Assembly (NCBI GenBank): GCA_965247645.1 | Contig: OZ252024.1 | Coordinates: 865,683 to 929,682, forward strand | DNA: 64,000 nucleotides | Direction of reading: 5' to 3' | Origin: Dehalococcoidia bacterium | GTDB taxonomy: Bacteria > Chloroflexota > Dehalococcoidia > Lucifugimonadales > UBA2985 | Shown: positions 13,310-48,962 of the stretch, one piece after another | Layout of the letters: each line of letters starts with the position of its first letter | How positions within the stretch are numbered: the first letter of the stretch is position 1 | Position numbers and translations under genes: made by a program | Notes under the pieces: model-generated | Databases searched by the model: none | Seen by the model: only the letters and a program-made list of their open reading frames with translations | What the model was told of the DNA's origin: nothing

Positions 13310-13975
13310 TCAGTACATTACGTGCGCCTGCACCGATACGGCCACCGACATCTCAATGTCCTGGATGGCCCGAGACATGGCTTGGCCGATGAGGTCCAGC
13401 TTGCGCACCTGCTCGATACGAGCAGCCACCGTGGCCAGCTCTTGCCGGGTCAGCAGCTCCTTGAAGATGTCGCAGGCGTCGGCCAAGCAGATGATCACCA
13501 CGTCGCGCGGGCTGGGGATGCCATCGCTGAACAGCACGTCCATAATGCGTAGCTTCACCTCGCGCTCCGCATTGCCATCTACGGACGGGTAACGCCTGGA
13601 GCGGAACACCCAGAGAAAGCGGTCGTCCTGGCGCTCCAGAATGCCCTCCTCCACCAGCCGGGAAAGCGCCTCCTCGCGGATGGCTGGGCCGCTCCTTGCC
13701 GTGCTTGTAACCCAGAAACGGGCGTCGTGCTTCTCCCCCATCTCGGCCTGGGCTGCAATCTCGGCCAGCGTGGGGTCAAGCAGGCTGTCGCCGATGGGCG
13801 TGGCATCGATGAGAAACAGGCTGTCCAGGTCTGTGTCGATGCGGTTCTCCATCGCCAGGTCCATCAGCACAGCACCGGCGGTGGCGTAGTCCAGCGACCA
13901 GTTGGACACGGTTACGAACCTCCCGTCATCGTCGCGAAGCAGAAGCAGGACTATTTCCTCGACAAATCTCAACAT
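13310..13975 (-). CDS. GOLPH3/GPP34-family protein
   Basis: MLRFVEEIVLLLLRDDDGRF...LDYATAGAVLMDLAMENRI is the typical GPP34 N-terminus, and the length (221 aa) fits. Confidence 0.75.
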   Translation of the reverse strand: MLRFVEEIVLLLLRDDDGRFVTVSNWSLDYATAGAVLMDLAMENRIDTDLDSLFLIDATPIGDSLLDPTLAEIAAQAEMGEKHDARFWVTSTARSGPAIREEALSRLVEEGILERQDDRFLWVFRSRRYPSVDGNAEREVKLRIMDVLFSDGIPSPRDVVIICLADACDIFKELLTRQELATVAARIEQVRKLDLIGQAMSRAIQDIEMSVAVSVQAHVMY

Positions 13976-28300: not shown

Positions 28301-31300
28301 CGATCTCAACGACATTGACAACAATTTGACTGATTCCGGCGCGGTCTACGTATTCACCAAGTCACCCGACGTCGCCTGGGCCGACGCCACTGAGACCGCC
28401 AAGCTCACTGCCTCCGACGGCGCGGCGAAGGACGAATTCGGGATCTCCGTCGCCATCGACGTTGATACCGTCGTGGTCGGAGCGCACCAGCCCAGCTATC
28501 AAGACGAAAACGATGTGACCGTCGATGTGGGGCCCGGCGCGGCCTACGTCTTCACCAAATCCGGCAACGTCTGGGCCACCGCCACCGAGACTGCCAAGCT
28601 CATCGCTTCCGACGGCGCGGCGAACGACGAGCTTGGAATCTCCGTGGCCATCGACGGTGACACCGTCGTGGTTGGGGCGCGCCTGGACGACGACAATGGC
28701 GACAGTTCCGGCGCGGTCTACGTATTCACCAAGTCACCCGACGTCGCCTGGGCCGACGCCACTGAGACCGCCAAGCTCACTGCCTCCGACGGCGCGGCGA
28801 AGGACGAATTCGGGATCTCGGTGGCCATCGACGTTGATACCGTCGTCGTCGGAGCGCACCTGGAAAACGCCAATGATGACGACGTAGACACCACTGACGA
28901 CGTCGCTGACTCCGGCGCCGCCTACGTCTTCACCAGGAATGCCGGTGTGTGGGACAATGGGGTAAAGCTCACCGCTTCCAACGGCGACATGGGCGATGGG
29001 TTCGGCAAATCAGTTGCAGTGAACGGCAATACCGTCGTCGTCGGGGCGTATCTGTTCGACCGCGACGACCGCGTTGTTCCTGGCTCCGGTTCGGCCTACG
29101 TGTTTGCCAGGGATCCGAACTCCGGCAAGTGGAGCCAGACGCTCAATCTCGCCGGCCCCGACCCCGACCAGAACGACTGGTTCGGACACTCCGTTGCGAT
29201 AGGAGATGACGGTACTCTCCTGGCAGGCGTGCCCCAGGACGACGGTAGTCGCGGTTCGGCATACGCGATCAACATATCAAATGCGAAGTGGGTGGACTTC
29301 GTCTCAACAGAATTGACCATGTCCGATGACCGGTACTACGTCTACCGGGCGCTCCATCTGACCAACGACCAAGAGTACGGCTTTCGGGTGCGTGCCGTGA
29401 ACGCCGCAGGCAATACTCGTTCTGCGGAAACCGACGCGGCCACGCCCAAGCTTGCGAAGCCGGGCAAACCCGAAGATCTGGCCGCGAAGGCAAGAGACCG
29501 TGCCGTGGAGTTGAGTTGGAAACTCTCGGACGATTCCACCCTAGATCACTACGATGTACTGCAGCCTCCCGAGCAGACCAAGCTCACCGCCGGGTCCGAC
29601 AGCGAGGCGGACGGAAAGTTCGGGGAATCGGTAGCGGTGGATAGTGACACCCTCGTGGTCGGGGCGTATCAGCACGACGTAGACGGCAAATCCAACGCCG
29701 GCGCCGCCTACGTCTTCACCAGAAACCCGATCTCCGGTGAGTGGAGCGAGGTGGCCAATCTCACCGCTTCAGATCCGGCGGTAAACGACGAGTTCGGGTA
29801 TTCCGTGGCTGTGGACGGTGACACCATCGTGGTTGGAGCGCGCCAGGACGTCACTCGCAACGGCGCCGCCTACGTCTTCACCAAGGTCTCAGGCGTGTGG
29901 AGCCAGAAGGCGAAGCTCATAGCCTCGGACGGCGCGGCCAACGACGAGTTCGGATTCTCCGTGGCTGTGCACGGCGACACTATCGTGGTTGGGGCGCACC
30001 AGGACGACGACAATGGCGATATATCTGGCTCGGCCTACGTCTTCACCAAATCCGGCAACGTCTGGGCCACCGCCACCGAGACCGCCAAGCTCATCGCCTC
30101 TGACGGCGAGGAGGGCGATCGCCTTGGACGTTCCGTTGCGGCGCATGGAACCACCGTTGTGGTAGGAGCGAACCTGCACGACATCGGTACCAACGATAAT
30201 GCCGGCGCGGCCTACGTCTTTACCGAGCCAGCCAACGGGTGGGCCAACATAGATAATACTACTGCGGCCAAACTCACCGCCGACGGTGGCGAGCAATTCG
30301 GGTCTTCCATAGCGGTGGACGGTAACACTGTCGTGGTCGGGGCCCGCAAGAATAACGCTGCTTACGTATTCATTCTGGGCTCTGGTATGTGGTCCCAAGC
30401 GGCAAGGCTCGAGGCTTCTGACAGCGACGGGTCCGAAGAATTCGGGTCCTCCGTCGCGGTACGGGGTAGCACCATCGTGGTCGGGGCGGACTCCACCGAT
30501 ATCGACCCTTTCGATAGTGATGACGCTCGCTCAGGCGCGGCTTACCTCTTCACCAAGACGGACGGGGCCGTCTGGACCAACGATCCGAACAAAGACCACA
30601 GAACGGAGTCAGGCAGGCTCACTTTACCCATCGAAGAAGGGGCCGTAGAGAAGTCCGACGAGTTCGGAAACTCCGTCGCCCTGGACGGCCAGAGCATCGT
30701 GGTCGGGGCGCCCGAGGGCAGCGATGGCTTCGGTTCGGTCTACGTGTCGGGTATCCCGCAGTGGTCCCCTATTTCCGGCAGCAATGCTACCACCACCTTC
30801 CACACAGTCAGAGGCCTGACCAACGGCATGGAGTACACCTTCCAGGTCCGCACGGTGGACAAGTTGGACGATGTTGGCGCCGGCCCGCCCTCGGACATCG
30901 TTCGGGCCACGCCTGAGCGTAACAAAATCCCTGAAGCCATACCCGATGCCTTTACCATCAAAGAAGACACCGCGGAATTCTTCAACGTCATCGCCAACGA
31001 CACGGACATGGATGAGGACACCCTCAGCGTAACCGCGGTGAGCGAGCCCAGCAACGGCACAGCGGAGATCGTGGAAGGCTCGATGACGGAGGTCACCTAT
31101 ACGCCGGATGCCGACTTCCACGGTTCCGACTCGTTCACCTACGAGGTGAGCGACGGATACGGAGGTACGGATACGGGTAGGGTCGACGTAACCGTCACAC
31201 CGGTGAACGATGCTCCTGATGCCTCCAATGATATCTTCACTGTTTTGGAGAACGCATCGGCCACATCCCTTAACGTAATCGCCAACGACATAGACGTGGA

Positions 31301-33515: not shown

Positions 33516-33655
33516 CCGGTCTCCGTACCAGGGACTAGCGCGAAATCAGTCGCCTCGGCTACGCCGATACAGCGACCTTCGCCATTAGCTCATCGTGGGG
33601 TACGAGCGTTGCCCCGAAGACTTGGGCAAACCTGGCGGCAGCCTGCACATCGTCG

Positions 33656-33855
33656 TCAGCCAACCTCGCTCCTCGCTACCGGCCGCGACTCCAACCAGCT
33701 CGTCATGTCGCTTGCCCTCCACCTGACGGAGTGGGCCCGACCCTGACGGGCCATGGGAACTCTCCGACCTGCATGAGCCGGTAAATCGACGAGCGGCTCA
33801 TACCCGTGATTTCCTCAACCTGTCGACGCCTCAGCAGTCTGTAATCCATTTTCAT
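33656..33855 (-). pseudogene. AlpA-family excisionase/HTH regulator with a frameshift
   Basis: MKMDYRLLRRRQVEEITGMSRSSIYRLMQVGEFPWPVRVGP runs in one frame. The conserved tail VRWRASDMTSWLESRPVA continues in another frame from about 33722. Confidence 0.6.
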
Positions 33856-33879
33856 CACATCCTTATGCTCTTCCGTTCG

Positions 33880-34300
33880 TACCAATTAGGTATCCGGCGC
33901 TCCAGCAAGCCGTTGGGCCGCCGGCCTCCTGCACAGGTCTGTGGGAGCGCCTCTCCTGCGCCGTCAGAGGTTCGAGACTAGCGCTCCTCCGCGAAGAGGG
34001 TTGACTTGGAACCCCTCGCCCCCCTCCCCCGCAACGGCTCGTATCCCGCCGCAAACTCGTTAGTTCTCTGAGGGCTCATGGGACCGCGGCTCTGCAGAAG
34101 AGTGGGAACGATTCGTAGGACGTGCATCACCTCCATGTACGTCTTGGAACGCCACAACGTCCCAGCAAGGAAAATGTAGGCCGGCGCGGCGCCCAAAAGT
34201 AGGTCAATAACTCAAAGCTGAGTCGCGCCTTTTCAGAGTTGCCCGTGCACGAGGTGAACGTCCCAGCCAGTGGTCCTGTTGTCTCCGACAGCACACCCCA
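33880..34300 (-). pseudogene. Heavily decayed tyrosine-recombinase (integrase) remnant
   Basis: Reverse frames give ARLSFELLTY / LGAAPAYIFLAGTLWRSKTYMEVMHVLRIV (compare TGxRxxELLxLxWxDVDxxxxxLxI). A 1-nt-shifted HDLCRRPAAQRLAGAP compares with HDLRHTxAxxLxxAG. Multiple frameshifts and stops. Confidence 0.3.
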
Positions 34301-34648
34301 TGGGGAGGGATGTTGGCGACCGGGAAGGGTTGGTAGCGCCTCTACGCGAGAGATGGCGGGATGCGCCGTGCCCCGATGGAGTCTCAGCGCTCTGCGGTAT
34401 GGAATGGCCCGTGGCGCTTGGCCATGGCCTCCGAGTACTTCGCCATGACGGCCTCAACAGTCTACACCCTAACATCAACCCGACTTCTGAGACAGGCTCA
34501 GCAATAAGGGTACAGCGGTGTACCCCGGGTCCGCATTGGGGCACCCCGTTTTAGATTGTGCCAAAAGTCGGGTATCTCGAACGTCGCCTTGGATGCTCGC
34601 TGACAGTGCTATACTAGCCACCCGCTGGAAATAGAAGGGAGAAATACG

Positions 34649-34849
34649 GTGAATGAGTACATGGTATGGCTGGAGGACGGACGCACGGTGATTGTACGAG
34701 CAAACGCTGTTGTAGTTAGGTCCACTCAGGCGCTCTTCATGGATGCAACCCGCAATCCTGTTGCGGGCTTTCCGGATCCTGCGGGATGGGCTAAGCGGGA
34801 CAATGTAAGCGAGTCTACAGACGCTGGAGAAGGCGCCGACTCTACATAA
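34649..34849 (+). CDS. Hypothetical small protein
   Basis: 66-aa ORF with GTG start and RBS gaagggag 9-16 nt upstream. No family recognised. Confidence 0.3.
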   Translation: MNEYMVWLEDGRTVIVRANAVVVRSTQALFMDATRNPVAGFPDPAGWAKRDNVSESTDAGEGADST

Positions 34850-35145
34850 GGGTGCAAAGGGCGAAGGGTCGCTAGGCGTGAAACGCCGTCCAGGACGGCA
34901 TCGAGGGCCAGGATTCCGAGATTCGCCGGACTCTCAGAAACGGACAAGGACGATTCCCGTCCACGCGGGACCGGCCCAGGGAAAACCAGGGCGGGGTCGC
35001 TGAGCCACACCTATTAAGACTCGCTGGGGAGCGGGATCGTTGTCCACCCATCTTGGTTCAAGGTCTTCAATATAGCCGCTGTGTACGCTGGATTGGGAGT
35101 TTTCTGCACGACCGCGAATAGTTCTTTACCGGCTGGAGTGAACAA

Positions 35146-35608
35146 TGAGGTGGACCCAGAGAGTTGGACAGGTAGCTAAGATCGTTAACTGCTCCTAGAA
35201 TAACAGGGGAAAGGAAGGAGCAGACAATGAGAGAGAGTCGCAGGAAGCATAGTCCGGCGTTCAAAGCAAAGGTGGCCCTGGAGGCGTTGAAAGAAGAGGA
35301 GAGTACGGCAGAGATAGCCAGTAAATTTGAAGCGCTTCCGGCACAAGTGAGGACATGGAGGTGTATCTGAAGGCATACGCAGACGGCGGGGATGCCAGGG
35401 CCGGAATAGCCGAGTATCTCAGTTTCTACAACGCCCAGAGACCTCACCAGGCCTTGGGCTATCGAATCCCGGGGGAGGTATTCATCTCTGGAAGTGGAGG
35501 AAATGTGGTAGCATCACCGATGACATCAACATCAACACTGGGGTCTATAAGGGCAGTCCACGATCTTAATCTGGCCTCTAACCTGTCCAGCTAATGGGGT
35601 CCACCTCA
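35146..35608 (+). mobile_element. Internally deleted IS3-family element (463 bp) retaining both terminal inverted repeats
   Basis: IRL is TGAGGTGGACCCagagagtTGGACAGGT (from 35146). The reverse complement of the right end is TGAGGTGGACCCcattagcTGGACAGGT (ends 35608). Inside, the OrfA N-terminus MRESRRKHSPAFKAKVALEALKEEESTAEIASKF (ATG 35227) abuts the OrfB C-terminus EVYLKAYADGGDARAGIAEYLSFYNAQRPHQALGYRIPGEVF. Confidence 0.75.
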
Positions 35609-36018
35609 CCTATTGGCTACCGCAGTTGAATCCGACTCGACACGCGGAAAAATAGAGCCTACAACGAGCATACCGAATTCTAGTCGGCCAGAAGCCTGAT
35701 GTGGTAACATAAGGTAGGCGTGGTACAGGGCAGGGGGATACAATAGCCGCATGGGTATGGACCTGAGATTCTCGCTGGGTCAAGGTGTGGGAAGGCTTGA
35801 CAAGGCACCCCTACTTCAAAGCTAAAGACGACTCCCCCCTCCACCAACCCCGCAAATTCGAGAACCTTCGCCTTGAAGCCCGTTTTCAACCTGCGATATT
35901 GTCCTATCGGAATGAGTGGCTCAAGTGACCCGGCTCGACTTGCAAGTCGGGTGAGACCCCCCAACACACTTCATCAGGATGCGGATCTGTGCGAGACAGG
36001 AAGCTGGGATAGGGCTGC

Positions 36019-36825
36019 ATGGACTCACTAGCTGAGTGGCTATCGTCACCCAATGCCTCCGAGGTAGCCCTGACGTGGTGGAAAGCGGTTGTGCTCGTAG
36101 GGGCGGGAATCATGGGAGGTTTCATCAACACCTTGGCAGGCGGCGGATCGATGATTACAGTTCCGGCGCTTATGTTGCTGGGGATGCCTGCAGACCACGC
36201 AAACGCGACAAACAGAGTCGGTATCTTGCAACAGTCACTAACCGGAGTCAGAGGTTTCAACAAAGCAGGCAAGTTGGAAAAGGGCGCTATTTTGCCCATG
36301 CTGATCCCTACAGTGTCCGGCGCTGTTCTGGGCGCGTTGTCCTCCACATGGCTGCATCCCAATGTTCTCAAGCCGGTTCTGCTTGGCGCAATGATCACAA
36401 TTGCGCTTCTTATGTTGATTTTGCCGGACGTAGTTGCGCCTCCGGCAGGCGCGAAGACATACACCCTGCGAGAGCGCCCAACCGGGGTCCTTATGCTGTT
36501 CGGCGCGGGTGTTTACGGCGGGTTTGCGCAGGCCGGGGTTGGCTTCATCCTGATTGCCGCGCTGGCGGCGGGTCTCCGTTACGATCTAGTGCGAACGAAT
36601 GCCCTGAAGGCGGTGTGCACGGCGCTCTTCAGCATCGCTTCTTTGTCCATATTTATAGCTGCCGGTCAGGTTGAATGGGTTCCGGGCGTCATTCTTGCGG
36701 TTGGAATGACGGTTGGCTCGTACCTCGGCGTAAAATTTGCAATAAATGTTGATCAGAGGCTCATCAAATGGATGCTTTTCGCGATGATCTGCGTGGCTAG
36801 CGCTTCAGCGCTCTTGTTCAGTTGA
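36019..36825 (+). CDS. TauE/SafE-family (sulfite/anion exporter-like) membrane protein
   Basis: GGFINTLAGGGSMITVPALMLLGMPADHANATNRVGIL in the first half and an internal repeat with GGFAQAGVGFILIAAL; 268 aa, polytopic. Confidence 0.8.
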   Translation: MDSLAEWLSSPNASEVALTWWKAVVLVGAGIMGGFINTLAGGGSMITVPALMLLGMPADHANATNRVGILQQSLTGVRGFNKAGKLEKGAILPMLIPTVSGAVLGALSSTWLHPNVLKPVLLGAMITIALLMLILPDVVAPPAGAKTYTLRERPTGVLMLFGAGVYGGFAQAGVGFILIAALAAGLRYDLVRTNALKAVCTALFSIASLSIFIAAGQVEWVPGVILAVGMTVGSYLGVKFAINVDQRLIKWMLFAMICVASASALLFS

Positions 36826-36900: not shown

Positions 36901-37235
36901 CCACCCATCGTCTTTTCTGCGTAGGCAGGAATTCAGAGCTGAGGCGCGGGGAGGAGACCCCGTCCCATCCCCCCTGGATGCCCGCGTTCGCGGGCATGAC
37001 GACGTTGCCCCCACCGTCTTTCCTGCGTAGGCAGGATTCAGGGCTGAGGCGCGGGGAGGAGGCCCAGTCCCATCCCCCCTGGATGCCCGCGTTCGCGGGC
37101 ATGACGACGCTGCTCCCACCGCCTTTCCTGCGTAGAGCCTGCCCCGTATCGTAGTACGGGGCAGGAATCCATACTTGGGCCGGGGCCACATCCCCCATCC
37201 CCTCTCTGGATGCCCGCGAACGCGGGCGTGGCGGC
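36901..37235. repeat. Three tandem units of about 105-120 bp from a hairpin-containing REP-like family
   Basis: Units start at 36901, 37011 and 37116 with CCACC(g/c)..TTTCCTGCGTAG. Units 1-2 each carry ATGCCCGCGTTCGCGGGCAT. Unit 3 carries CCTGCCCCGTAtcgtagTACGGGGCAGG and GATGCCCGCGAACGCGGGCG. The long ORFs across it are repeat artefacts. Confidence 0.8.
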
Positions 37236-37635
37236 CGGGCCGCCCGCGCAGGATGTTGCGCTCATTGTTCGGTTGAAGTAACATAGGCCAAAATGGCCGG
37301 TTAGCCGGAGGGATGTGGGTATTACCCACCGACTCTGGCAGATAACTGGCCGTAAACGTGAGTGTAGCTTGACCCACAAGCCGGGGGCGCCAGAGATAGC
37401 TCCCAGCCAACCGTCGTTGAAAACGGCGCTGGCTATCCGGTAAGGGTCCAGCGGATCGACTGAATGAGCGCCCATCGGGCGGACCGTGTTCCGGTCGGCG
37501 GGAAAAGCGCATCATCCTGCATACCGAGCTTGCTTGTTGCTCGACAACCTGCGCATTCTTGCGCTCGATGCAGGAATCTCACAAAGCCATGTCCCATCCA
37601 ATCGATGTTCATACGGATAGAGTTGAGGGTGAGCA

Positions 37636-40617
37636 ATGAATTCCGCAGAGAGTTGTTTGCATGACCTGTTCAGGGCGCAGGCGGCCAGAACCCCGGATAC
37701 CCCGGCCATAGTGTCCGGTTACGGACAGATATCCTACTTTCAACTGGACCAGGCAACGGACTCGCTGGGGGCCTATCTTCGATATCACGGCGCTTCACAG
37801 GATGAACCGGTGGGCATATTCATGGAGACCTGCTCGGAGTACATCGTTGCAAGCTTGGGAACCCTGAAGGCCGGAGCGGCGTTCATGCCAATGCCACTCG
37901 ACTCCCCCGAAAGTCTGCTGCGCGCCATATTGGCCGAATCGCAGCCCAGGGTGGTGGTCACCAAGGCGAAATACCTGTCCAGGCTAAGCCCGTTCACCGA
38001 TACCCACGTTTTTGCCATTGACGGCGATCAATCCTGGACTGAGTTCAACCCTGCAATCCCCGGCCCGTCCGTCACCGGCGACAATTTGGCGTTCCTCCCT
38101 TACACGTCCGGCACAACCGGGGCCCCAAAGGGGGTGATGCAGACCGGCGGCGCTATGGTTTCATCTTACTATGCCAGGTACAAGTTCAGCTCTTACGCCG
38201 TTGGAGACAGGGTTGCCTGCAACATTTTCTTCCCCTGGGAGTTTTTACGTCCACTGCTGAAGGGGGGCACGGTATACGTAATTCCCGATGACGTCATATT
38301 TCTGCCGCGGGCCCTTGCCTCGTTCATCGCGGAGCGCTCCATTTCTGAGATTCTGTTCACTCCCTCCCTGCTACAAGGGGTCTTGAACTCGGCGGACCAT
38401 GAGGTTCTGCGAACCCAGTTGGCGTCTTTGCGGGTGGTCTGGTTGAACGGAGAGGTGGCGCCAACCAGCCTGCTGGAGCAGGCGTTGGGCGTCTTCCCAA
38501 GCTCTACCCGCGTGTTCAATACGTACAGCATCAGCGAGACCCACGATGTTTGCACCATCGAATTGACGGGCTTGCGCCTGGACGGAATGGAGGTGTGCCC
38601 GGTGGGTCTGCCGATGGACGGAGTGGCGGTTCGAGTTCTCCCGGAGGGGGAGTCCGCTCTCGCCTCAACCGGAGCCGGTGAGTTGTTCATTGGCGGCCGC
38701 GGGCTTGCCAGGGGATACCTTGGGAGGCCGGACCTGGACACCGAATACTTCGTTTGGCGGGACGGAGAGAGATACTACGCAACGGGCGACCTGGCTGAGG
38801 TTGAAGCGCAGGGGATGACGTCAGTCATTGGCCGTGACGATTCAATGGTGAAGATCAGGGGATACAGCGTTTACATCGGCGCAATCGAGGAAATGCTGCG
38901 GAAGCGCTGCGCCGTGGCAGACGCCGTGGTGCTGGCTGAAACCGAGGACGAGGCCAACAAGAGGCTGGTGGCGTATGTTGTTCGGGAGCCGGGGGCAACG
39001 TGGCAGGTCGATGCCAGAAGCGGGACCAGCAGGGACCTTCGGAGCATACTGGAGCGGTATCTGCCGCACTACATGGTGCCCGGCAGGTTCCTGGAGATGG
39101 ATGCGCTTCCTATAAACCAACAGACTGGCAAGCTGGACCGCAAAGCCCTGCCCGCATTGCGCCAGGCCAGAACCACTGCTAGGGAGCGCGGGCAGCTCCC
39201 AGAGAATGCGACGGCGGCAGAACGCCGCTACGCCCTGCGTGAGCTGTGGGGCGAGGCGCTGGATATCGACAGCGATTCATTAGAAGACGATTGGAACTTC
39301 TTCGACCTTGGCGGCCATTCCCTGATCGGCCTGGGTCTCACCCTAGGCATTGAGCGGACGTTTGGGATTCAACTTCGCGGCACAGAGATTTACGAGCGCC
39401 CTACCATAAACGAGTTCGCCGCATACCTGGAAGGCGGCGTGGCAGACGCGGGGCCGAGGGCTTCTCTGGCCGACGACGCAAACCTGGACGCGGAGATTAT
39501 CCCCCAGGGCAAAATCGGCGCTACGCGTCTGAGCGAAGCATCTTCGGTCCTGGTCACGGGCGCAACCGGCTTTATCGGGGCCTTCTTGCTTGACGAACTG
39601 CTGCGCGCCACGAGCGACGATACCCGGTTCTATTGCCTGGTGAGGAACCGGGCTTCCGGACAAGGCCGAACGGCCAACCGTGTACTGGAGACGTTGAAGT
39701 TCTACGGACTGGCCGGCCAGTTCCTTGAAAATCGGATCGTTCCGGTTGTGGGAGACCTTACCCAGCCCCATCTGGGGTTGGAGGAGGACGAGTATCGGCA
39801 GCTTGCGGAGCAGACCGATATGATCTTTCACTGCGCGGCCGCCGTCAACTACGTGTACCCTTACGCGACGGTCAAGCCCCACACCGTTAATGGGACACTG
39901 GAGGTACTCAGGCTCGCTTGCAGCGCCAAGACAAAGCCGGTGCAGTACATTTCCTCCAACGGCATCTTCCCGGGAGGGGACGATGCCCCCTACCAGGAAG
40001 ACAACCTGATAGACGGCTTTGCCGACAGGTTGGAGGGGGGTTACAACCAGGCCAAATGGGTTGCGGAACGCCTGGTGTGGTCGGCCATACAGCGGGGGCT
40101 GCCAGTCTGCGTATTCAGGCCCGGCAACATAGGCCACCATAGCGGGACGGCCGTGGTGAACCCCAACGACTTCCAGTCGTCCATAATCAAAGCCTGCGCG
40201 CGGGCGGAGCTGGCTCCCCTGGCGCCGGACTGGCGGTTCGAAATGACCCCTGTCGACTTCCTGGCCAAGGCTATCACAAAGATCTCCGACGACCCGGAGC
40301 GCCTGGGCAAGGTCTACAACGTGATTCAGCAGAACCCTGTCCCAGCCGACCACGTTTTTACCTACATGGAGAGCAACGGCTACGTGGCGAATCGCGTTCC
40401 GTTGGGGGACTGGAGGTCCAGCCTGGAAGCAACGGCAGACCGCGAAGACGACATGGAGTTGAAGGTTCTGGTCCAGGCCCTCGACTCGGTTGAGCCGTAC
40501 CTGACCGACACCAGCCTCTACGACAACAGCCGGTTCAGCGAAGCCATCTCCCGGATTGGCTTGTCAGCGCCGACTGTGGACGTGGACTACGTGACCAAGT
40601 TTCTGCGTATACCCTAG
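37636..40617 (+). CDS. NRPS-like carboxylate reductase: adenylation, thiolation (PCP), thioester-reductase (A-T-R)
   Basis: A3 LPYTSGTTGAPKGV, A8-A10 GDLAE...GRDDSMVKIRGYSV...TGKLDRKAL, PCP FFDLGGHSLIGL, R domain VLVTGATGFIGAFLLDELL and YNQAKW (YxxxK); 993 aa. Confidence 0.9.
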   Translation: MNSAESCLHDLFRAQAARTPDTPAIVSGYGQISYFQLDQATDSLGAYLRYHGASQDEPVGIFMETCSEYIVASLGTLKAGAAFMPMPLDSPESLLRAILAESQPRVVVTKAKYLSRLSPFTDTHVFAIDGDQSWTEFNPAIPGPSVTGDNLAFLPYTSGTTGAPKGVMQTGGAMVSSYYARYKFSSYAVGDRVACNIFFPWEFLRPLLKGGTVYVIPDDVIFLPRALASFIAERSISEILFTPSLLQGVLNSADHEVLRTQLASLRVVWLNGEVAPTSLLEQALGVFPSSTRVFNTYSISETHDVCTIELTGLRLDGMEVCPVGLPMDGVAVRVLPEGESALASTGAGELFIGGRGLARGYLGRPDLDTEYFVWRDGERYYATGDLAEVEAQGMTSVIGRDDSMVKIRGYSVYIGAIEEMLRKRCAVADAVVLAETEDEANKRLVAYVVREPGATWQVDARSGTSRDLRSILERYLPHYMVPGRFLEMDALPINQQTGKLDRKALPALRQARTTARERGQLPENATAAERRYALRELWGEALDIDSDSLEDDWNFFDLGGHSLIGLGLTLGIERTFGIQLRGTEIYERPTINEFAAYLEGGVADAGPRASLADDANLDAEIIPQGKIGATRLSEASSVLVTGATGFIGAFLLDELLRATSDDTRFYCLVRNRASGQGRTANRVLETLKFYGLAGQFLENRIVPVVGDLTQPHLGLEEDEYRQLAEQTDMIFHCAAAVNYVYPYATVKPHTVNGTLEVLRLACSAKTKPVQYISSNGIFPGGDDAPYQEDNLIDGFADRLEGGYNQAKWVAERLVWSAIQRGLPVCVFRPGNIGHHSGTAVVNPNDFQSSIIKACARAELAPLAPDWRFEMTPVDFLAKAITKISDDPERLGKVYNVIQQNPVPADHVFTYMESNGYVANRVPLGDWRSSLEATADREDDMELKVLVQALDSVEPYLTDTSLYDNSRFSEAISRIGLSAPTVDVDYVTKFLRIP

Positions 40618-40644
40618 CAACGCGAAAAAGAGGGTAGGTTTCTC

Positions 40645-41217
40645 GTGTCGAATGGCGGTAGCCTCAGCCCCAGCGGCGGTGTCTCGGGTGGCAATGGCGG
40701 TTCTATAGTCTGGCTAGTCGGGATGGTCGTGGTCCTCATGCTCGCCGGGGGTCTTTACTTTGGCGGAGAGTTGCTGACCAATATCGCTGTCGGTGAGCTT
40801 GACCACAGGGCGATAGAGACGGCGGTGGTTCAGCTCACCAATGCTGAGAGAGCTAAGGCAGGTCTTGACCCTCTTCTACATAGCGAACGTGTGTCTGAGA
40901 TCGCCCGAACGCACAGTGAGGACATGGCTCTGACGGGCATCTACGCCCACAACATCAATGGGCAGGGTCCCTCCGACCGCGCGCGCATGGTGGGCTATCC
41001 CTGCGGCCTCGCAGAGAACATTCACAAGCGACCACGCTTGGGGTTTAGCGACGCGGAAGATATGGCGCAAAAGTCGGTAGAGGACTGGATGAATAGTCCG
41101 GGGCACAAGCAGAACATCCTCAGCTCCAACTACCAGCGCATCGGCGTTGGAGTGTTCGTCGATGAGGGGATGGCAGACGTATGGGTCTACCTCACGCAGA
41201 ACTTCTCACTGTGCTAA
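40645..41217 (+). CDS. CAP/SCP/PR-1-domain protein with N-terminal TM anchor
   Basis: LTNAERAKAGLDPLLHSERVSEIARTHSEDMA...ENI...WMNSPGHKQNILSSNYQRIGVGV. It starts 27 nt after the A-T-R gene. Confidence 0.8.
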   Translation: MSNGGSLSPSGGVSGGNGGSIVWLVGMVVVLMLAGGLYFGGELLTNIAVGELDHRAIETAVVQLTNAERAKAGLDPLLHSERVSEIARTHSEDMALTGIYAHNINGQGPSDRARMVGYPCGLAENIHKRPRLGFSDAEDMAQKSVEDWMNSPGHKQNILSSNYQRIGVGVFVDEGMADVWVYLTQNFSLC

Positions 41218-41426
41218 CACCCGCGTGCGCTTGACAAACCTCCGGCGTGCGCCGCAGCCACTCCGATGCGTACTCCCTCCCTCTTGCCGCAGGTCTCCCC
41301 AAACACGCCGTTCCAAGCTATACTTGCCTGCGTGGTGGGGCTGTAGCTTAGACGAGAGCCCGCCTTCGTAAGCTGAAACGGAGCCGGCCGCGCTATTTTT
41401 GACGGCGTAGAAGAAAGGACACTGAA

Positions 41427-45725: not shown

Positions 45726-46787
45726 ATGGCCCAAAGCGACAACGATAAATCAGGCTCCGGATCTTCATTGCAGCCCACCGGCTTTGGCGCCAAGCCGGTC
45801 CTATACCGCTTATCCCTTGGCGCGGCGGTTGTTCTTTTAGCGCTGGTAATAAGCCTTCTGATCTGGGGCGACAGTATGGAGTTCCCCACCACCGTAGCCC
45901 ATCAACCCTCCAGCGACGGCTCCATCATCTTTGAGAGGTCATTGCGAGACGTCACCGGCGGCGCAATAGACGACGCTGTGGACTGGGTGACCGTTGAGGG
46001 CGCATGGCTGTTCGACGGGTTGAGCAACGCGATTAACTACGCCCTTGGATACATTGAGGGGGTGTTGAAGTGGACGCCCTGGCCGGCTACAGTTGTCGTT
46101 CTTGCCCTGATATCTTTCAGGGTGGGGCGTTGGGGCCTCCTGGCCTTCGCATCCCTCGCGCTGCTTTACATGGGCTTTATGGACTTCTGGGAGAACACAA
46201 TGGACACCCTTGCGCTGATGGTGGTGGCGGTGATAGTTGCGATGTCAATCGGCCTTCCATTGGGCGTGCTGAGCGCACGCAACCAGCTTGCCAACAACAT
46301 TATGCGCCCCATTCTGGACGGCATGCAGACCATGCCCAGCTTTGTATACCTGCTCCCCGGCATTCTCTTCTTTGGCCTGGGAAAGCCGGCCGGCATCTTC
46401 GCCACCATCATCTACGCTGTCCCGCCGGTAATCCGGCTAACCAACCTGGGAATACGGCAGGTGTCCCCACAGATCATGGAGGCCGCTTCGTCTTTTGGAG
46501 CGTCGCCGAGGCAGATGCTTACCAAGGTCCAGATCCCGCTTGCCATGCCCACCATCATGGCCGGCATCAACCAGACCACGATGATGGCCCTTGCGATGGT
46601 AACCATCGCAAGCCTGGTGGCCGCCGGCGGCCTGGGCGACAACGTGAACAGGGCTCTCCAGAAGAACGAGCCGGGGAATGGCCTGCTCGCCGGGCTTGCC
46701 ATCGTATTCCTTGCCATCATAATAGACCGCCTCACCCAGGCCGTGGCCCGCAGCCAGCAGGAGACCCTGAGAAGAGCGGCTGGATAG
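45726..46787 (+). CDS. proW: Glycine betaine/proline ABC transporter permease (ProW/OpuAB-type)
   Basis: Polytopic, with the permease EAA-like region EAASSFGASPRQMLTKVQIPLAMPTIMAGINQT; 353 aa. Confidence 0.8.
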   Translation: MAQSDNDKSGSGSSLQPTGFGAKPVLYRLSLGAAVVLLALVISLLIWGDSMEFPTTVAHQPSSDGSIIFERSLRDVTGGAIDDAVDWVTVEGAWLFDGLSNAINYALGYIEGVLKWTPWPATVVVLALISFRVGRWGLLAFASLALLYMGFMDFWENTMDTLALMVVAVIVAMSIGLPLGVLSARNQLANNIMRPILDGMQTMPSFVYLLPGILFFGLGKPAGIFATIIYAVPPVIRLTNLGIRQVSPQIMEAASSFGASPRQMLTKVQIPLAMPTIMAGINQTTMMALAMVTIASLVAAGGLGDNVNRALQKNEPGNGLLAGLAIVFLAIIIDRLTQAVARSQQETLRRAAG

Positions 46788-46789
46788 AG

Positions 46790-47760
46790 GCCTTGTTCTC
46801 TCAGCACATATGGTACAGAGGCTCTAGAATGAGCCATGAGCAGATTAGCAGTACGGACCATCATCGAAACATGGAAGGTGTGCGATCAGAACGTCTCGGA
46901 AACGGCCCGGCGTTTGCACGTAGACCGCCGGACCGTCAAACGCTGGGTGGATCGAGGGCGGCAGCCCTGGGGTTACGTGCGCTGGCAGGGCGTGCGGCGC
47001 AAGTCTACTGCACCCAAACACCCCAAGCGTGCGCTGTGGGGGGAAGCTGCCGCCGAAGTGCGAAGGTGGAGGGAAGCGACTGGCTTCTGTCGGGAGAAGC
47101 TAGCGGTCTTGGCCCAGGCTCAAGGGCTGGAGGTCTCGGCATCGACCATTCATCGGTATTTGCAACGCGTGGGCTTGGTTCGCCCCAGTACGAAGCGACG
47201 GCGGCCTCGCTTTCAGAACGGCCAAGTCATGCGGCCTCGTAACTGCCCAGGCTTAGGCTACCTTCAGATGGACGTGAAGTACGTCACTCCTGAGTTGTCT
47301 GGGTTGCCGTACACTTGCTACCTGTACGCGGCGATGGACATCTCCTCTCGCTACAAGGTTGGGCTAATCCTCCCCAAGCTGGATGAGGGGGGAACACTCT
47401 TGTCCCTGTACTATGCCACACAGCAGTTCCCCTTCCCGTTGCACTACGTCCAGACGGACAATGGATTGGAGTTTCAGAGACGCTTTCACGCCAAGTGCGC
47501 CGAACTCGGCCTTGAACACTTCTACATCCACAAGAGTTCTCCCAATGAGAACGCTGTAATCGAGCGGAGTTTCCGCACGGACGAGGAGGAGTGCTTCTTC
47601 CGGTTAGAGGAAGCGCCCCAAGACCACCAGGAGCTGAACACTTGGTATCAGCGCTTCCTTGATGCCTACAACACTACCCGACCACACATGGGCATCAATA
47701 TGCTTACTCCAAAGGAGGCTATCGCCCTGTACCAAAAGTCCTGAGAGATTAAGAGAGGCT
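46790..47760 (+). mobile_element. IS481-like insertion sequence between the permease and binding-protein genes
   Basis: Contains an intact transposase ORF. Imperfect terminal IRs: left GGCCTtgttCTCTCAG, and right reverse complement GCCTctcttaatCTCTCAG. Boundaries are approximate. Confidence 0.6.
46836..47744 (+). CDS. IS481-family DDE transposase (HTH plus rve core)
   Basis: HTH VSETARRLHVDRRTVKRW. DDE triad context: LQMDVKYV, YVQTDNGLEF, PNENAVIERSFRT. C-terminus YNTTRPHMGINMLTP. Confidence 0.8.
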   Translation: MSRLAVRTIIETWKVCDQNVSETARRLHVDRRTVKRWVDRGRQPWGYVRWQGVRRKSTAPKHPKRALWGEAAAEVRRWREATGFCREKLAVLAQAQGLEVSASTIHRYLQRVGLVRPSTKRRRPRFQNGQVMRPRNCPGLGYLQMDVKYVTPELSGLPYTCYLYAAMDISSRYKVGLILPKLDEGGTLLSLYYATQQFPFPLHYVQTDNGLEFQRRFHAKCAELGLEHFYIHKSSPNENAVIERSFRTDEEECFFRLEEAPQDHQELNTWYQRFLDAYNTTRPHMGINMLTPKEAIALYQKS

Positions 47761-47869
47761 GGCGTTAGGCCGGCTTTTGTGGCATGATAAGGGTTGTCGC
47801 GTTTTTTACCGGAGACGTTTGATACGGTAATCCAAATACAGGGCATCCAAAATATAGAAGGAGAATCGA

Positions 47870-48962
47870 ATGAAATCCATGTACAAGCCCATCTTACTGA
47901 TATTGGCGATGGTGACCGTCATTGCTGCAATGGCCTGCAGCTCGGAAGACCCCACCGCTACGCCGACCACGGCGCCTACGCCGACCACGGCGCCTACGGC
48001 CACCGCCATGGTGATGCCGGAAGTCGAGAAAGAGGTCATTGTCTTCAGCGACCTTAACTGGACCAGCGCCCAGGTGCAGAACAGAATCGCCCAGTACATC
48101 GTGGAAGAGGGCTACGGCTATCCCACGGACGTCGTTTTCGGCGCCACACTACCCCTGCTCGCCGGTCTGCGAAAAGGCGACACCCAAGTAACTATGGAGA
48201 TATGGCTCCCCAACCAGCTTGAAGCTTGGACGGAGGCTGTCGACAACGGCGAGGTGGAAGCCTTAGGCGAGAGCCTGGGGAAGGACTGGCAATCGGCCTT
48301 TGTGATTCCGGCATACCTCCAGGAGCAATACCCGGAACTGGACAGCATTGAGGACCTCAAGGACGATCAGTTCAAAGAGCTGTTCGACGACCTCGGAGAC
48401 CGGGGGCAAGGCCCGCCTGGTGTCCTGCGTCATCGGCTGGGCCTGCGAGGAGGTCAATGCCGAGCAGATCGAATCGTACGGGCTGTCTGACCACGTCTAC
48501 GTAATCAACCCGGGGGACGGCGCAGCTGCCAATGCAGATCTGTACGGCGCCTATGAGAAGGAAGAACCCTGGCTTGGCTACCAGTGGGGCACCAACGACC
48601 CCGCTTTGCTACTGGATCTCGTCCGCCTCGAAGAGCCACTCTATAGCGACGAGTGCTGGGCTTCCGGCAAGGCCTGCGGGTACGAGGACGCCACGATTCT
48701 GATTGGCATAAATACCGAAATAAACGACAGGGCGCCCGATGTCGTTGACATGCTGAATGAGTGGGGCTTCAACATAAACCGCTTCAAGGAAGTTGCCGCT
48801 TGGCAGAATGACAACCCGGATGCCGACATCAATGACGCCGCTCTCTGGTGGATGAATGGCAATACAGACGTCTGGAGTGAGTGGGTTACGGACGAGGCCG
48901 AGGCCGCCATCATGGGAGCCCTCGCAGCTAACGAGACACCGGACGGCTGGCCGACAGGATAG
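47870..48962 (+). pseudogene. proX: Glycine betaine ABC substrate-binding lipoprotein (ProX/OpuAC-type), split by a frameshift
   Basis: ORF 47870..48490 carries the signal with AMAC lipobox, PT linker and N-terminal lobe. The family continues in ORF 48348..48962 (ETGGKARLVSCVIGWACEEVN...EPWLGYQWGTNDP). The frame switch maps to about 48380-48395. Confidence 0.75.

What the first reader, a model, noticed from the sequence alone, without database searches (positions are those of the whole stretch)
37636..41217. Stand-alone A-T-R reductase without the alpha-amino-binding Asp, followed closely by a CAP-domain protein
The 993-aa enzyme has complete A, PCP and R domains, so it should release an aldehyde or alcohol. 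I aligned the A4 region to the GrsA motif FDASVWE from memory. That places Ile where Asp235 normally binds the substrate amine (NIFFPWEF), in an aromatic-rich pocket segment. The substrate is therefore probably not a free alpha-amino acid. A carboxylic acid, keto acid or quaternary-ammonium acid is conceivable; fungal A-T-R-R enzymes reduce glycine betaine, and a betaine transporter locus lies 5 kb away, which is a weak link. A membrane-anchored CAP/PR-1 domain gene starts 27 nt downstream and a TauE exporter lies upstream. This three-gene arrangement is not a described pathway.
Basis: partly seen in the sequence, partly recalled or inferred. Interest (0 to 1): 0.55.

Follow-up and report, generated by a model that had tools for sequence, protein, structure and literature searches.

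The report
Likely bacterial glycine-betaine reductase gene
This gene encodes a stand-alone "activate, carry, reduce" enzyme found in over 200 marine or sponge Dehalococcoidia species; its substrate pocket matches published residues of the fungal enzyme that reduces glycine betaine to choline, a reaction described so far only in eukaryotes, while the CAP gene next to it is a strain-specific passenger.

Summary
Window 37636-40617 encodes a complete 993-aa A-T-R enzyme. A CAP/YkwD gene starts 27 nt downstream and a TauE gene lies 810 nt upstream.

Two formal alignments against a verified GrsA-PheA sequence show a 3-residue deletion exactly at Asp235-Ala236-Ser237. No acidic residue replaces them. 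The pocket code is --WLWNTDVK. In 865 ordinary A domains, 98.6% have Asp235 and none has this combination.

CAP follows the reductase in 0 of 80 related Dehalococcoidia genomes. It sits on a 618-bp indel that is missing even from relatives at 95-96% identity. TauE is kept only in those closest relatives.

The recurrent partners are different:
- an unnamed 230-aa SAM methyltransferase (46/80 loci);
- an EcKL/APH-type kinase in the same operon (9/80);
- the glycine-betaine synthesis pair GSMT+SDMT (4/80, twice directly downstream).

The pocket residues N196-I-F198-F199-x-W201, W269 and D304 match, in identity and spacing, those published for the eukaryotic glycine betaine reductase ATRR (F201, F202, W204, W270, E304).

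Best reading (about 0.5): a bacterial, single-R counterpart of ATRR. I obtained no ATRR sequence and ran no assay, so substrate and product are inferred.

The parts
37636..40617 (+). NRPS-like A-T-R reductase gene (993 aa). It is the conserved core of the finding.
   Evidence: ORF; Pfam domains; more than 120 clusters at 70% identity or more; 203 genomic relatives, the best 80 all Dehalococcoidia.
37669..39120 (+). Adenylation domain: core residues 12-362 plus C-terminal subdomain 417-495.
   Evidence: PF00501 2.8e-61 and PF13193 5.4e-08. NCBIfam TIGR01733 'amino acid adenylation domain' scores 257.5 bits, below its 317.4 cut-off.
38221..38241 (+). A4 pocket segment N196-I-F-F-P-W-E202. It carries the 3-residue deletion where Asp235-Ala236-Ser237 of PheA would lie.
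   Evidence: MAFFT and hmmalign. The pattern N-I-F-F-x-W-E is kept in 77 of 79 family members, with x variable.
38440..38448 (+). W269-L-N271, which align with PheA pocket positions 299 and 301.
   Evidence: V[VI]WLNGE is present in 77 of 79 members.
38521..38550 (+). Divergent A5 motif T296-Y-S-I-S-E-T-H-D304-V305, aligning with PheA positions 322, 330 and 331. It places an invariant Asp in the pocket at position 330.
   Evidence: H-D is invariant in 78 of 79 members.
39235..39429 (+). Carrier (PCP) domain, with the phosphopantetheine-attachment Ser562 at 39319-39321.
   Evidence: PF00550 9.8e-15. S562 is invariant in alignment A1.
39547..40500 (+). Thioester reductase (R) domain, residues 638-955.
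   Evidence: TIGR01746 274 bits against a 213 cut-off; PF07993 2.1e-59. The closest solved structure is the MxaA R domain, 4u7w, 8.6e-78.
40625..41242 (+). 618-bp strain-specific cassette carrying the CAP/YkwD gene (40645-41217) with its own GAGGG ribosome-binding site. It is an incidental neighbour, not part of the conserved system.
   Evidence: Absent at the same junction in L001 and L006. CAP is found downstream in 0 of 80 loci. One other contig, L081, carries it.
36019..36825 (+). TauE/SafE-family membrane protein, an incidental upstream neighbour.
   Evidence: PF01925 1.1e-42. It is next to the ATR only in L001, L006 and L081.
45726..48962 (+). OpuA-type betaine ABC transporter genes: permease 45726-46787, an IS (rve integrase) at 46836-47744, and the OpuAC binding protein split into two frames at 47870-48490 and 48348-48962. 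A functional link to the ATR is possible but unproven.
   Evidence: Pfam. In L081 and L006 the permease and OpuAC are adjacent with no IS. An OpuAB-like permease lies about 4.5 kb downstream of the ATR in L011 and L058.

Best explanation
The gene encodes a housekeeping-type NRPS-like carboxylic acid reductase of marine and sponge-associated Dehalococcoidia (SAR202-like lineages).

**Proposed mechanism.**
1. The A domain adenylates a small carboxylic acid that carries a permanently or strongly cationic N-methylated head group. Glycine betaine is most likely; dimethylglycine or sarcosine are possible.
2. It holds that group in an aromatic cage (F198/F199, W201, W269) backed by Asp304, not by the usual Asp235 salt bridge.
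3. The acyl group moves to Ser562 of the carrier domain.
4. The R domain releases it with NAD(P)H as the aldehyde (betaine aldehyde).
5. Further reduction to the alcohol (choline) would come from the same R domain or from a separate dehydrogenase. An EcKL-type kinase and a 230-aa methyltransferase would then act on the product, for example to make phosphocholine.

**Shown.** Domain completeness, the pocket residues, conservation, the gene neighbourhoods, and the non-conservation of CAP and TauE.

**Inferred.** The substrate, the product, and the roles of the methyltransferase and kinase.
For: 1. **Pocket.** There is a deletion at Asp235, and the code is --WLWNTDVK (W201, L240, W269, N271, T296, D304, V305, K499) in two formal alignments. 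It is invariant across the family. None of 865 ordinary A domains has it.
2. **Match to published ATRR residues.**
   - Hai et al. (bioRxiv 10.1101/559534) name F201, W204 and W270 as the cation-pi cage and E304 as the anionic partner of A. nidulans ATRR. They note the loss of Asp235.
   - PMC13194791 adds that Phe202 stacks on Trp204 in AnATRR. It gives N212, F214, F215, W217, F285 and E319 for the diatom homologue.
   - The query has N196, F198, F199, W201, W269 and D304. The Trp-to-aromatic spacing is 68 residues, as in the diatom enzyme.
3. **Context in relatives**.
   - GSMT (PDB 5gwx 6e-70; NF051855 1e-78) and SDMT (NF041675 2e-54) lie directly downstream and co-directional in L054 and L056. 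They lie within about 4 kb in L010 and L012.
   - With one such locus per roughly 3.5-Mb genome, chance adjacency within 6 kb would give about 0.3 cases in 80 genomes (my estimate).
4. **Other partners.**
   - A 230-aa methyltransferase is adjacent in 46 of 80 loci.
   - An EcKL/APH kinase shares the operon in 9 of 80.
   - The window's close relative carries an SDR-methyltransferase-kinase operon elsewhere in its genome.
5. **Transport.** An OpuA-type betaine uptake locus lies 5 kb downstream in the window.
6. **Not a secondary-metabolite gene.** It is 62-96% identical across more than 200 species, with no other NRPS or PKS genes nearby.
Against: - I obtained no ATRR sequence. Equivalence to ATRR rests on published residue numbers, not on a direct alignment or a tree.
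- The architecture differs: one R domain and 993 aa, against A-T-R1-R2 and about 1,300 aa.
- The diatom ATRR homologue, with a similar NxFFxW...E scaffold, is reported to act on tryptophan or salicylates. The scaffold alone therefore does not fix the substrate.
- GSMT/SDMT adjacency occurs in only 4 of 80 loci.
- The commonest partner, the 230-aa methyltransferase, has no known function. Its best matches are generic.
- In 26 of 80 loci, and in the window itself, none of these partner genes lies within 6 kb.
- In this window the opu locus is interrupted by an IS and the OpuAC reading frame is split.
- Nothing shows what a bacterium would do with betaine aldehyde or choline.
Confidence: 0.5

Rival explanations
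1. The enzyme has the same A-T-R chemistry but a different non-alpha-amino substrate. Candidates are another onium or cationic acid (DMSP or dimethylsulfonioacetate, beta-alanine betaine, gamma-butyrobetaine or carnitine, proline betaine, trigonelline or homarine), or an aromatic acid held by the Phe/Trp residues. The product would feed the methyltransferase/kinase module.
For: - Asp235 is absent and the pocket is aromatic with one buried Asp.
- The diatom ATRR homologue, with a related pocket, was reported to use tryptophan and salicylates.
- ATRR itself accepts a sulfonium analogue at a lower rate.
- The most frequent partner, the 230-aa methyltransferase, is unassigned.
- Most loci lack GSMT and SDMT.
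Against: - W269 matches the betaine-specific AnATRR (W270), not the diatom enzyme (F285).
- The only neighbours with a recognisable small-molecule pathway are the glycine-betaine synthesis genes and a betaine transporter.
Confidence: 0.3
2. One reading: ATR, the CAP-domain protein and TauE form a new three-gene pathway. An aldehyde or alcohol would be made by the ATR and then handled or exported by CAP and TauE.
For: - The CAP gene starts 27 nt after the ATR stop on the same strand, with no predicted terminator between them.
- The same arrangement recurs on one other contig, L081.
Against: - CAP is downstream of the orthologue in 0 of 80 genomes.
- At the identical junction, relatives at 95-96% identity lack the 618-bp CAP cassette and carry other inserts instead: an IS in L001 and a 199-aa secreted protein in L006.
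- TauE is adjacent only in those near-identical relatives, and it is separated from the ATR by 810 nt containing a repeat element.
Confidence: 0.03
3. The enzyme is a secondary-metabolite NRPS-like reductase that releases an amino aldehyde (pyrazine, imine or amino-alcohol natural products, as for PvfC, AusA or MxcG-type termini), or a member of the Lys2 or CAR families.
For: - The best NCBIfam and PDB matches are NRPS modules and terminal reductases: MxcG 4.8e-147, LgrA 5e-117, MxaA R domain 8.6e-78.
- Weaker matches are to Lys2 and CAR.
Against: - Every named family scores far below its cut-off: MxcG 491 against 2300, Lys2 317 against 1030, CAR 186 against 1300.
- There is no Asp235.
- There are no condensation, PKS or tailoring genes nearby, and contexts are housekeeping.
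- Conservation across more than 200 species is very high and apparently single-copy, which is atypical of natural-product clusters.
Confidence: 0.07

Closest known systems
Eukaryotic ATRR, the NRPS-like glycine betaine reductase (A. nidulans AN5318.2; Hai, Huang and Tang 2019)
   Same: - An A-T-R core with ATP- and NAD(P)H-dependent carboxylate reduction through a carrier-bound thioester.
- Loss of Asp235.
- Pocket residues F-F-x-W, a Trp about 66-68 residues later, and an acidic residue about 35 residues after that: query F198, F199, W201, W269, D304 against published F201, F202, W204, W270, E304.
- High conservation within its clade and a variable gene context.
   Different: - One R domain instead of R1-R2, and about 300 residues shorter.
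- Asp instead of Glu as the anionic residue.
- Bacterial; ATRR was described as exclusive to eukaryotes.
- It recurs next to a methyltransferase, a kinase and GSMT/SDMT, whereas fungal atrr has no conserved neighbours.
- Homology beyond the general A-domain level was not tested directly.
Bacterial and fungal carboxylic acid reductases (CAR; NF041592; PDB 5msc)
   Same: The A-T-R architecture and the overall mechanism of reducing an acid to an aldehyde. Phosphopantetheinylation is required.
   Different: It scores 186 bits against a cut-off of 1300. CAR A domains are of the acyl/aryl-CoA-ligase type, about 1,170 aa in total, with hydrophobic pockets for aryl or fatty acids.
Lys2 alpha-aminoadipate reductase (TIGR03443)
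   Same: A stand-alone A-T-R enzyme of primary metabolism that reduces a non-alpha carboxylate to an aldehyde.
   Different: It scores 317 bits against a cut-off of 1030, and the match is fragmented. Lys2 is about 1,390 aa with an N-terminal extension. Nothing in the context points to lysine biosynthesis.
Terminal reductase domains of NRPS/PKS lines (MxaA, MxcG, LgrD type)
   Same: The R domain is closest in sequence to the MxaA R domain (4u7w, 8.6e-78) and to the MxcG terminus. By my knowledge, some of these perform a 4-electron reduction to the alcohol.
   Different: The enzyme stands alone with no condensation domain or assembly line. Whether this R domain stops at the aldehyde is unknown.
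GSMT/SDMT glycine betaine synthesis (Methanohalophilus and Aphanothece type)
   Same: Full-length GSMT and SDMT homologues lie next to the ATR orthologue in L010, L012, L054 and L056.
   Different: In known systems betaine is the end product, an osmolyte. Here it would be an intermediate that is then reduced. These genes are not in the window itself.

Membership tests
Eukaryotic ATRR (glycine betaine reductase) | Domain order A-T-R1-R2, with a second SDR-type aldehyde reductase domain | tested here: not met
   Pfam finds only AMP-binding, AMP-binding_C, PP-binding and one NAD_binding_4 domain in 993 aa. All 120 best homologues are about 992 aa.
Eukaryotic ATRR (glycine betaine reductase) | A domain without the Asp235 equivalent | tested here: met
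   A 3-residue gap over positions 235-237 in MAFFT and hmmalign alignments to the verified PheA sequence.
Eukaryotic ATRR (glycine betaine reductase) | Aromatic cage plus an anionic residue at pocket positions (published as F201, W204, W270, E304) | tested here: met
   W201 at position 239, W269 at 299 and D304 at 330, with F198/F199 preceding. Identity and spacing agree with the published residue numbers. Equivalence is inferred from those numbers, not from an alignment with an ATRR sequence.
Eukaryotic ATRR (glycine betaine reductase) | A domain groups phylogenetically with ATRR A domains | not testable with these tools
   I could retrieve no ATRR sequence. The representative search returned only multi-module NRPSs, and the papers and supplements hold no sequences.
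Eukaryotic ATRR (glycine betaine reductase) | Glycine-betaine-dependent adenylation, thioesterification and NADPH-dependent reduction | not testable with these tools
   This needs a biochemical assay.
Thioester reductase domain proteins (TIGR01746) | Score above the curated cut-off, with the Rossmann GxxGxxG motif and Y-x3-K | tested here: met
   274 bits against 213.35. GATGFIG and Y803/K807 are read from the translation and are invariant in A1.
Amino acid adenylation domain (TIGR01733) | Score above the curated cut-off | tested here: not met
   257.5 bits against 317.4. The A4 and A5 motifs diverge: IFF---PWE and NTYSISE in place of FDxS and NxYGPTE.
Carboxylic acid reductase (NF041592) | Equivalog score above the cut-off | tested here: not met
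   186.2 bits against 1300.
Lys2 / L-aminoadipate-semialdehyde dehydrogenase (TIGR03443) | Equivalog score above the cut-off | tested here: not met
   316.7 bits against 1030.1, in three fragments.
   CAP in 0 of 80 loci and TauE in 2 of 80. The CAP gene lies on a 618-bp indel.
CAP / YkwD superfamily (neighbour gene) | PF00188 above the gathering score | tested here: met
   58.5 bits against 21.1. The TIGR02909 YkwD match is 80 bits, below its cut-off of 171.

The most novel reading that the evidence does not exclude
Abundant marine and sponge-associated Dehalococcoidia (SAR202-like) would have a complete reductive route to choline-type head groups that has not been described in bacteria. Glycine is methylated to glycine betaine by GSMT/SDMT or the unnamed 230-aa methyltransferase, or betaine is imported by OpuA. 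The single-R ATR then reduces it to betaine aldehyde or choline. An EcKL-type kinase phosphorylates the product. This would be a prokaryotic origin or counterpart of the eukaryotic ATRR pathway, with a new methyltransferase and a new small-molecule kinase.
Probability: 0.25. Interest if true: 0.8.

Novelty: new variant of a known kind. Interest (0 to 1): 0.6.

Why it matters
Glycine betaine and choline are major currencies of marine dissolved organic matter and of host-symbiont exchange. The only enzyme known to run the choline-to-betaine pathway backwards, ATRR, was reported as exclusive to eukaryotes.

If the reading is right, this enzyme does three things:
- It opens a new sink for betaine, and a new source of choline, in a very abundant deep-ocean and sponge lineage.
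- It gives a compact 993-aa single-R scaffold for studying cation-pi substrate selection in A domains.
- It assigns a first functional context to two widespread unnamed protein families, the 230-aa methyltransferase and the bacterial EcKL-like kinase.

The hypothesis can be tested directly with one recombinant protein. It also removes a false lead: the CAP and TauE neighbours are incidental.

Tried and rejected
1. **Representative search.** I searched the 1.84-billion-protein representative library with the A domain to find the nearest non-family relatives, hoping for A-T-R-R proteins. The 150 best hits were all multi-module NRPSs ranked by summed domain scores, so the search was uninformative.
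2. **ATRR sequence or 10-residue code from the literature.** The PNAS version is not held. The bioRxiv supplement has only images. The nematode paper's supplement holds statistics only. The diatom paper has no supplements held. A full-text search for the peptide motifs found nothing relevant.
3. **Prior reports.** Searches for a bacterial NRPS-like betaine reductase, or for SAR202 choline and betaine work, found no prior description.
4. **Possible A-T-R-R fusion.** A 1,251-codon ORF in L039 looked like one. It is read-through of upstream repeat elements, not a fusion.
5. **Second AMP-binding gene.** The one after the ATR in L004 and L005 is an ordinary acyl-CoA synthetase present in only two loci.
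6. **Promoter and terminator scan.** Around ATR-CAP the counts were at chance level.
7. **PDB searches.** The EcKL kinase gave no hit. The 230-aa methyltransferase gave only generic class I matches.
8. **Structure prediction.** I did not run it, because the tool returns no coordinates and could not show pocket geometry.


Full report
**1. What is in the window**

The + strand ORF 37636-40617 (ATG start, 993 aa) has four Pfam domains:

| Domain | Residues | E-value |
|---|---|---|
| AMP-binding | 12-362 | 2.8e-61 |
| AMP-binding_C | 417-495 | 5.4e-08 |
| PP-binding | 534-598 | 9.8e-15 |
| NAD_binding_4 | 640-880 | 2.1e-59 |

It passes the NCBIfam thioester-reductase model (274 bits against 213). 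Read directly from the translation, the catalytic motifs A3, A7, A8 and A10, the carrier Ser562, and the reductase GxxGxxG and Y803-x3-K807 are all present.

- A CAP/YkwD gene (40645-41217, GTG start, 190 aa, PF00188 1.5e-15) starts 27 nt after the stop.
- A TauE gene (36019-36825) lies 810 nt upstream.
- RmuC follows the CAP gene.

The description in the finding is therefore correct.

**2. The Asp235 question**

I wrote out GrsA-PheA residues 184-526 and confirmed them as 100% identical to PDB 1amu_A. I then ran two formal alignments:
- MAFFT L-INS-i with 18 ordinary A domains;
- hmmalign to an HMM built from those domains.

Both align ISFDASVWE of PheA with IFF---PWE of the query, giving a 3-residue gap that removes Asp235, Ala236 and Ser237. 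The exact partner is ambiguous, but no alignment gives an acidic residue.

The remaining code positions are W201 (239), L240 (278), W269 (299), N271 (301), T296 (322), D304 (330), V305 (331) and K499 (517). The A5 motif is NTYSISETHD rather than NxYGPTE. By established knowledge of the PheA structure, this also changes Gly324, whose backbone helps hold the alpha-amino group.

As a control I extracted 865 A domains from 150 large NRPSs. Of these, 853 (98.6%) have Asp at 235. None combines a non-acidic 235 with W239, W299 and an acidic 330. The signature is real and rare.

**3. A large, tightly conserved family**

The protein search returned more than 120 clusters at 70% identity or more, all about 992 aa with the same domains. 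A scan of one genome per species found 203 relatives. The best 80 (62-96% identity) are all Dehalococcoidia MAGs, several of them from sponges.

Homologues of the main neighbour gene include a 'SAR202 cluster bacterium' record and Tara Oceans sequences. One kinase homologue is filed under the sponge Geodia barretti.

Across 79 full-length members the pocket segments N-I-F-F-x-W-E, V-V-W-L-N-G-E and S-E-T/A-H-D are essentially invariant. Only the x between FF and W varies.

**4. CAP and TauE are not conserved partners**

tblastn of the window's neighbours against the 80 loci (6 kb each side) finds CAP in none. TauE and RmuC appear only in L001 and L006, the two relatives at 95-96% identity.

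Nucleotide alignment shows that window 40625-41242, which holds the CAP gene and its ribosome-binding site, is an indel. In L001 and L006 the sequence runs from the ATR stop region straight into window 41243 onward. After that, L001 carries an IS and L006 a gene for a 199-aa secreted protein before RmuC.

One other metagenomic contig (L081) has the identical CAP protein in the same place. The CAP gene is thus a strain-level cassette in a variable spot.

**5. What is conserved next to the reductase**

I clustered all ORFs of the 80 loci. The recurrent neighbours are:

| Neighbour | Loci (of 80) | Arrangement and identification |
|---|---|---|
| 230-aa class I SAM methyltransferase | 46 | Usually divergent and immediately upstream. 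A second subtype is co-directional with the ATR. |
| PfkB-family kinase | 33 | Lies beyond the methyltransferase. |
| 366-aa EcKL/APH-type kinase | 9 | PF02958 3e-13. Same operon as the methyltransferase and the ATR: methyltransferase-kinase-ATR in L019, ATR-methyltransferase-kinase in L010, L012, L013 and L050. |
| Sulfatase-superfamily protein | 6 | Not analysed further. |
| GSMT + SDMT pair | 4 | Details below. |

- The GSMT homologue matches PDB 5gwx at 6e-70 over its full length and NCBIfam NF051855 at 1e-78. The SDMT homologue matches NF041675 at 2e-54.
- In L054 and L056 the order is ATR, SDMT, GSMT, all on one strand with short gaps.
- In L010 the pair is separated from the ATR only by IS fragments.
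- With one such locus per roughly 3.5-Mb genome, chance adjacency within 6 kb would give about 0.3 cases in 80 genomes (my estimate).
- The 230-aa methyltransferase has only generic matches and no informative name.
- In the genome of the window's close relative (the L006 chromosome), an SDR-methyltransferase-kinase operon lies elsewhere. The window's lineage therefore probably has the module too, but unlinked.
- A 625-aa methyltransferase-kinase fusion exists on one contig. That contig has only 3x coverage, so the fusion may be an assembly error.
- Other orthologues sit among housekeeping genes.

**6. Comparison with the known betaine reductase**

- Hai, Huang and Tang (bioRxiv 10.1101/559534) showed that fungal ATRR (A-T-R1-R2) reduces glycine betaine to choline through betaine aldehyde.
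- Its A domain lacks Asp235. Three aromatic residues (F201, W204, W270) and E304 were proposed to hold the trimethylammonium group by cation-pi and electrostatic contacts.
- A 2026 paper on a diatom homologue (PMC13194791) adds that AnATRR Phe202 stacks on Trp204. It lists N212, F214, F215, W217, F285 and E319 for the diatom enzyme.
- The query has N196, F198, F199, W201, W269 and D304. The residues, their order and their spacing agree: W-to-aromatic is 68 in the query and the diatom enzyme and 66 in AnATRR, and aromatic-to-acid is 35, 34 and 34.
- At position 299 the query has Trp, like the betaine-specific fungal enzyme, rather than the Phe of the diatom enzyme.

I could not obtain any ATRR sequence, so this comparison rests on published residue numbers and not on an alignment or tree.

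**7. Most likely mechanism**

- The A domain adenylates a small N-methylated cationic acid, most likely glycine betaine, in the F/F/W/W cage backed by Asp304.
- It loads the acyl group on Ser562, and the R domain releases the aldehyde with NAD(P)H.
- There is no R2 domain. Reduction to choline would need either a second turnover by R or a separate dehydrogenase. The closest solved relative of R is the MxaA reductase.
- The SDR in the operon is a candidate for that dehydrogenase, but only a weak one. Its specific orthologue appears in one locus plus a remnant in L019.
- The EcKL kinase fits phosphorylation of an alcohol product.
- The 230-aa methyltransferase could act before the ATR (making the betaine) or after the kinase (on a phospho-base). 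The data do not decide between these.
- In the window, the nearest related genes are the OpuA-type permease and binding protein 5.1 kb downstream. Here an IS sits between them and the OpuAC frame is split. In L081 and L006 they are adjacent with no IS between them.

**8. Membership**

The protein fails the curated cut-offs:

| Family | Score (bits) | Cut-off (bits) |
|---|---|---|
| CAR | 186 | 1300 |
| Lys2 | 317 | 1030 |
| MxcG | 491 | 2300 |
| Generic amino-acid adenylation domain | 257.5 | 317.4 |

It also fails the A-T-R1-R2 architecture that defines ATRR. It should not be filed as an ATRR. The claim is that its A domain works like the ATRR A domain.

**9. Verdict**

The non-amino-acid and betaine ideas are strengthened. 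The CAP/TauE pathway is refuted.
- The best explanation is a bacterial single-R betaine-type carboxylate reductase, with confidence about 0.5.
- About 0.3 goes to a different cationic or aromatic acid, and small weights go to the other rivals.
- I found no prior description of such a bacterial enzyme in the literature held here.
- I rate it a new variant of a known kind, interest 0.6.

Noticed in passing
window 36904-37135: A 105-nt tandem repeat (2.2 copies, 92% matches) lies in the TauE-ATR spacer. Each unit holds a GC-rich hairpin (ATGCCCGCG-TTC-GCGGGCAT), and a third, degenerate copy of the hairpin core follows at 37201-37244. The block is mostly missing from L001 and L006: window 36870/37001-37154 has no counterpart there. 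Similar repeat read-through precedes the ATR in L039. It looks like a REP/MITE-type element.
   Followed up: partly
window 46836-47744 and 47870-48962: An IS (rve integrase with an HTH) is inserted between the OpuA-type permease and the OpuAC binding-protein gene. OpuAC is split into two overlapping frames. Related contigs L081 and L006 have the two genes adjacent with no IS. No ABC ATPase gene was recognised nearby.
   Followed up: partly
window 40618-41426; L001 8990-10893; L006 8990-10097: The ATR-RmuC spacer is a variable hot spot. Three near-identical strains carry three different inserts: the CAP cassette (window), an IS transposase (L001), and a gene for a 199-aa secreted protein on the minus strand (L006).
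   Followed up: yes
window 19398-32363: A giant 4,321-aa ORF with 41 FG-GAP repeats, 7 fibronectin-III domains, and cadherin-like and bacterial Ig domains. It is a probable surface adhesin.
   Followed up: no
window 5304-6740 (-), 13310-13975 (-), 8123-12280 (+): Several eukaryote-like or unusual proteins: a serpin (4e-110), a GPP34/Golgi phosphoprotein 3 homologue (1.5e-42), and a 1,385-aa trypsin-like peptidase with PD40 beta-propeller repeats. These would fit a host-associated (sponge) lifestyle.
   Followed up: no
window 33516-36018: About 2.5 kb with no ORF over 130 aa, no Pfam hit and no Rfam family. It contains a 28-nt inverted repeat at 35146-35173 / 35581-35608.
   Followed up: no
L087 6548-9098 (chromosome of the L006 genome): A tight SDR - 230-aa methyltransferase - EcKL kinase operon lies about 0.4 Mb from the ATR in the window's close relative. 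The SDR is a candidate trans-acting aldehyde reductase.
   Followed up: partly
L088 4354-6231: A 625-aa protein fuses the 230-aa methyltransferase to the EcKL kinase, and a sulfatase-family gene precedes it. The contig has only 3x coverage, so the fusion may be a frameshift artefact.
   Followed up: partly
L004 9147-10874; L005 9155-10897: In two relatives an ordinary acyl-CoA synthetase (about 576 aa) directly follows the ATR on the same strand.
   Followed up: no
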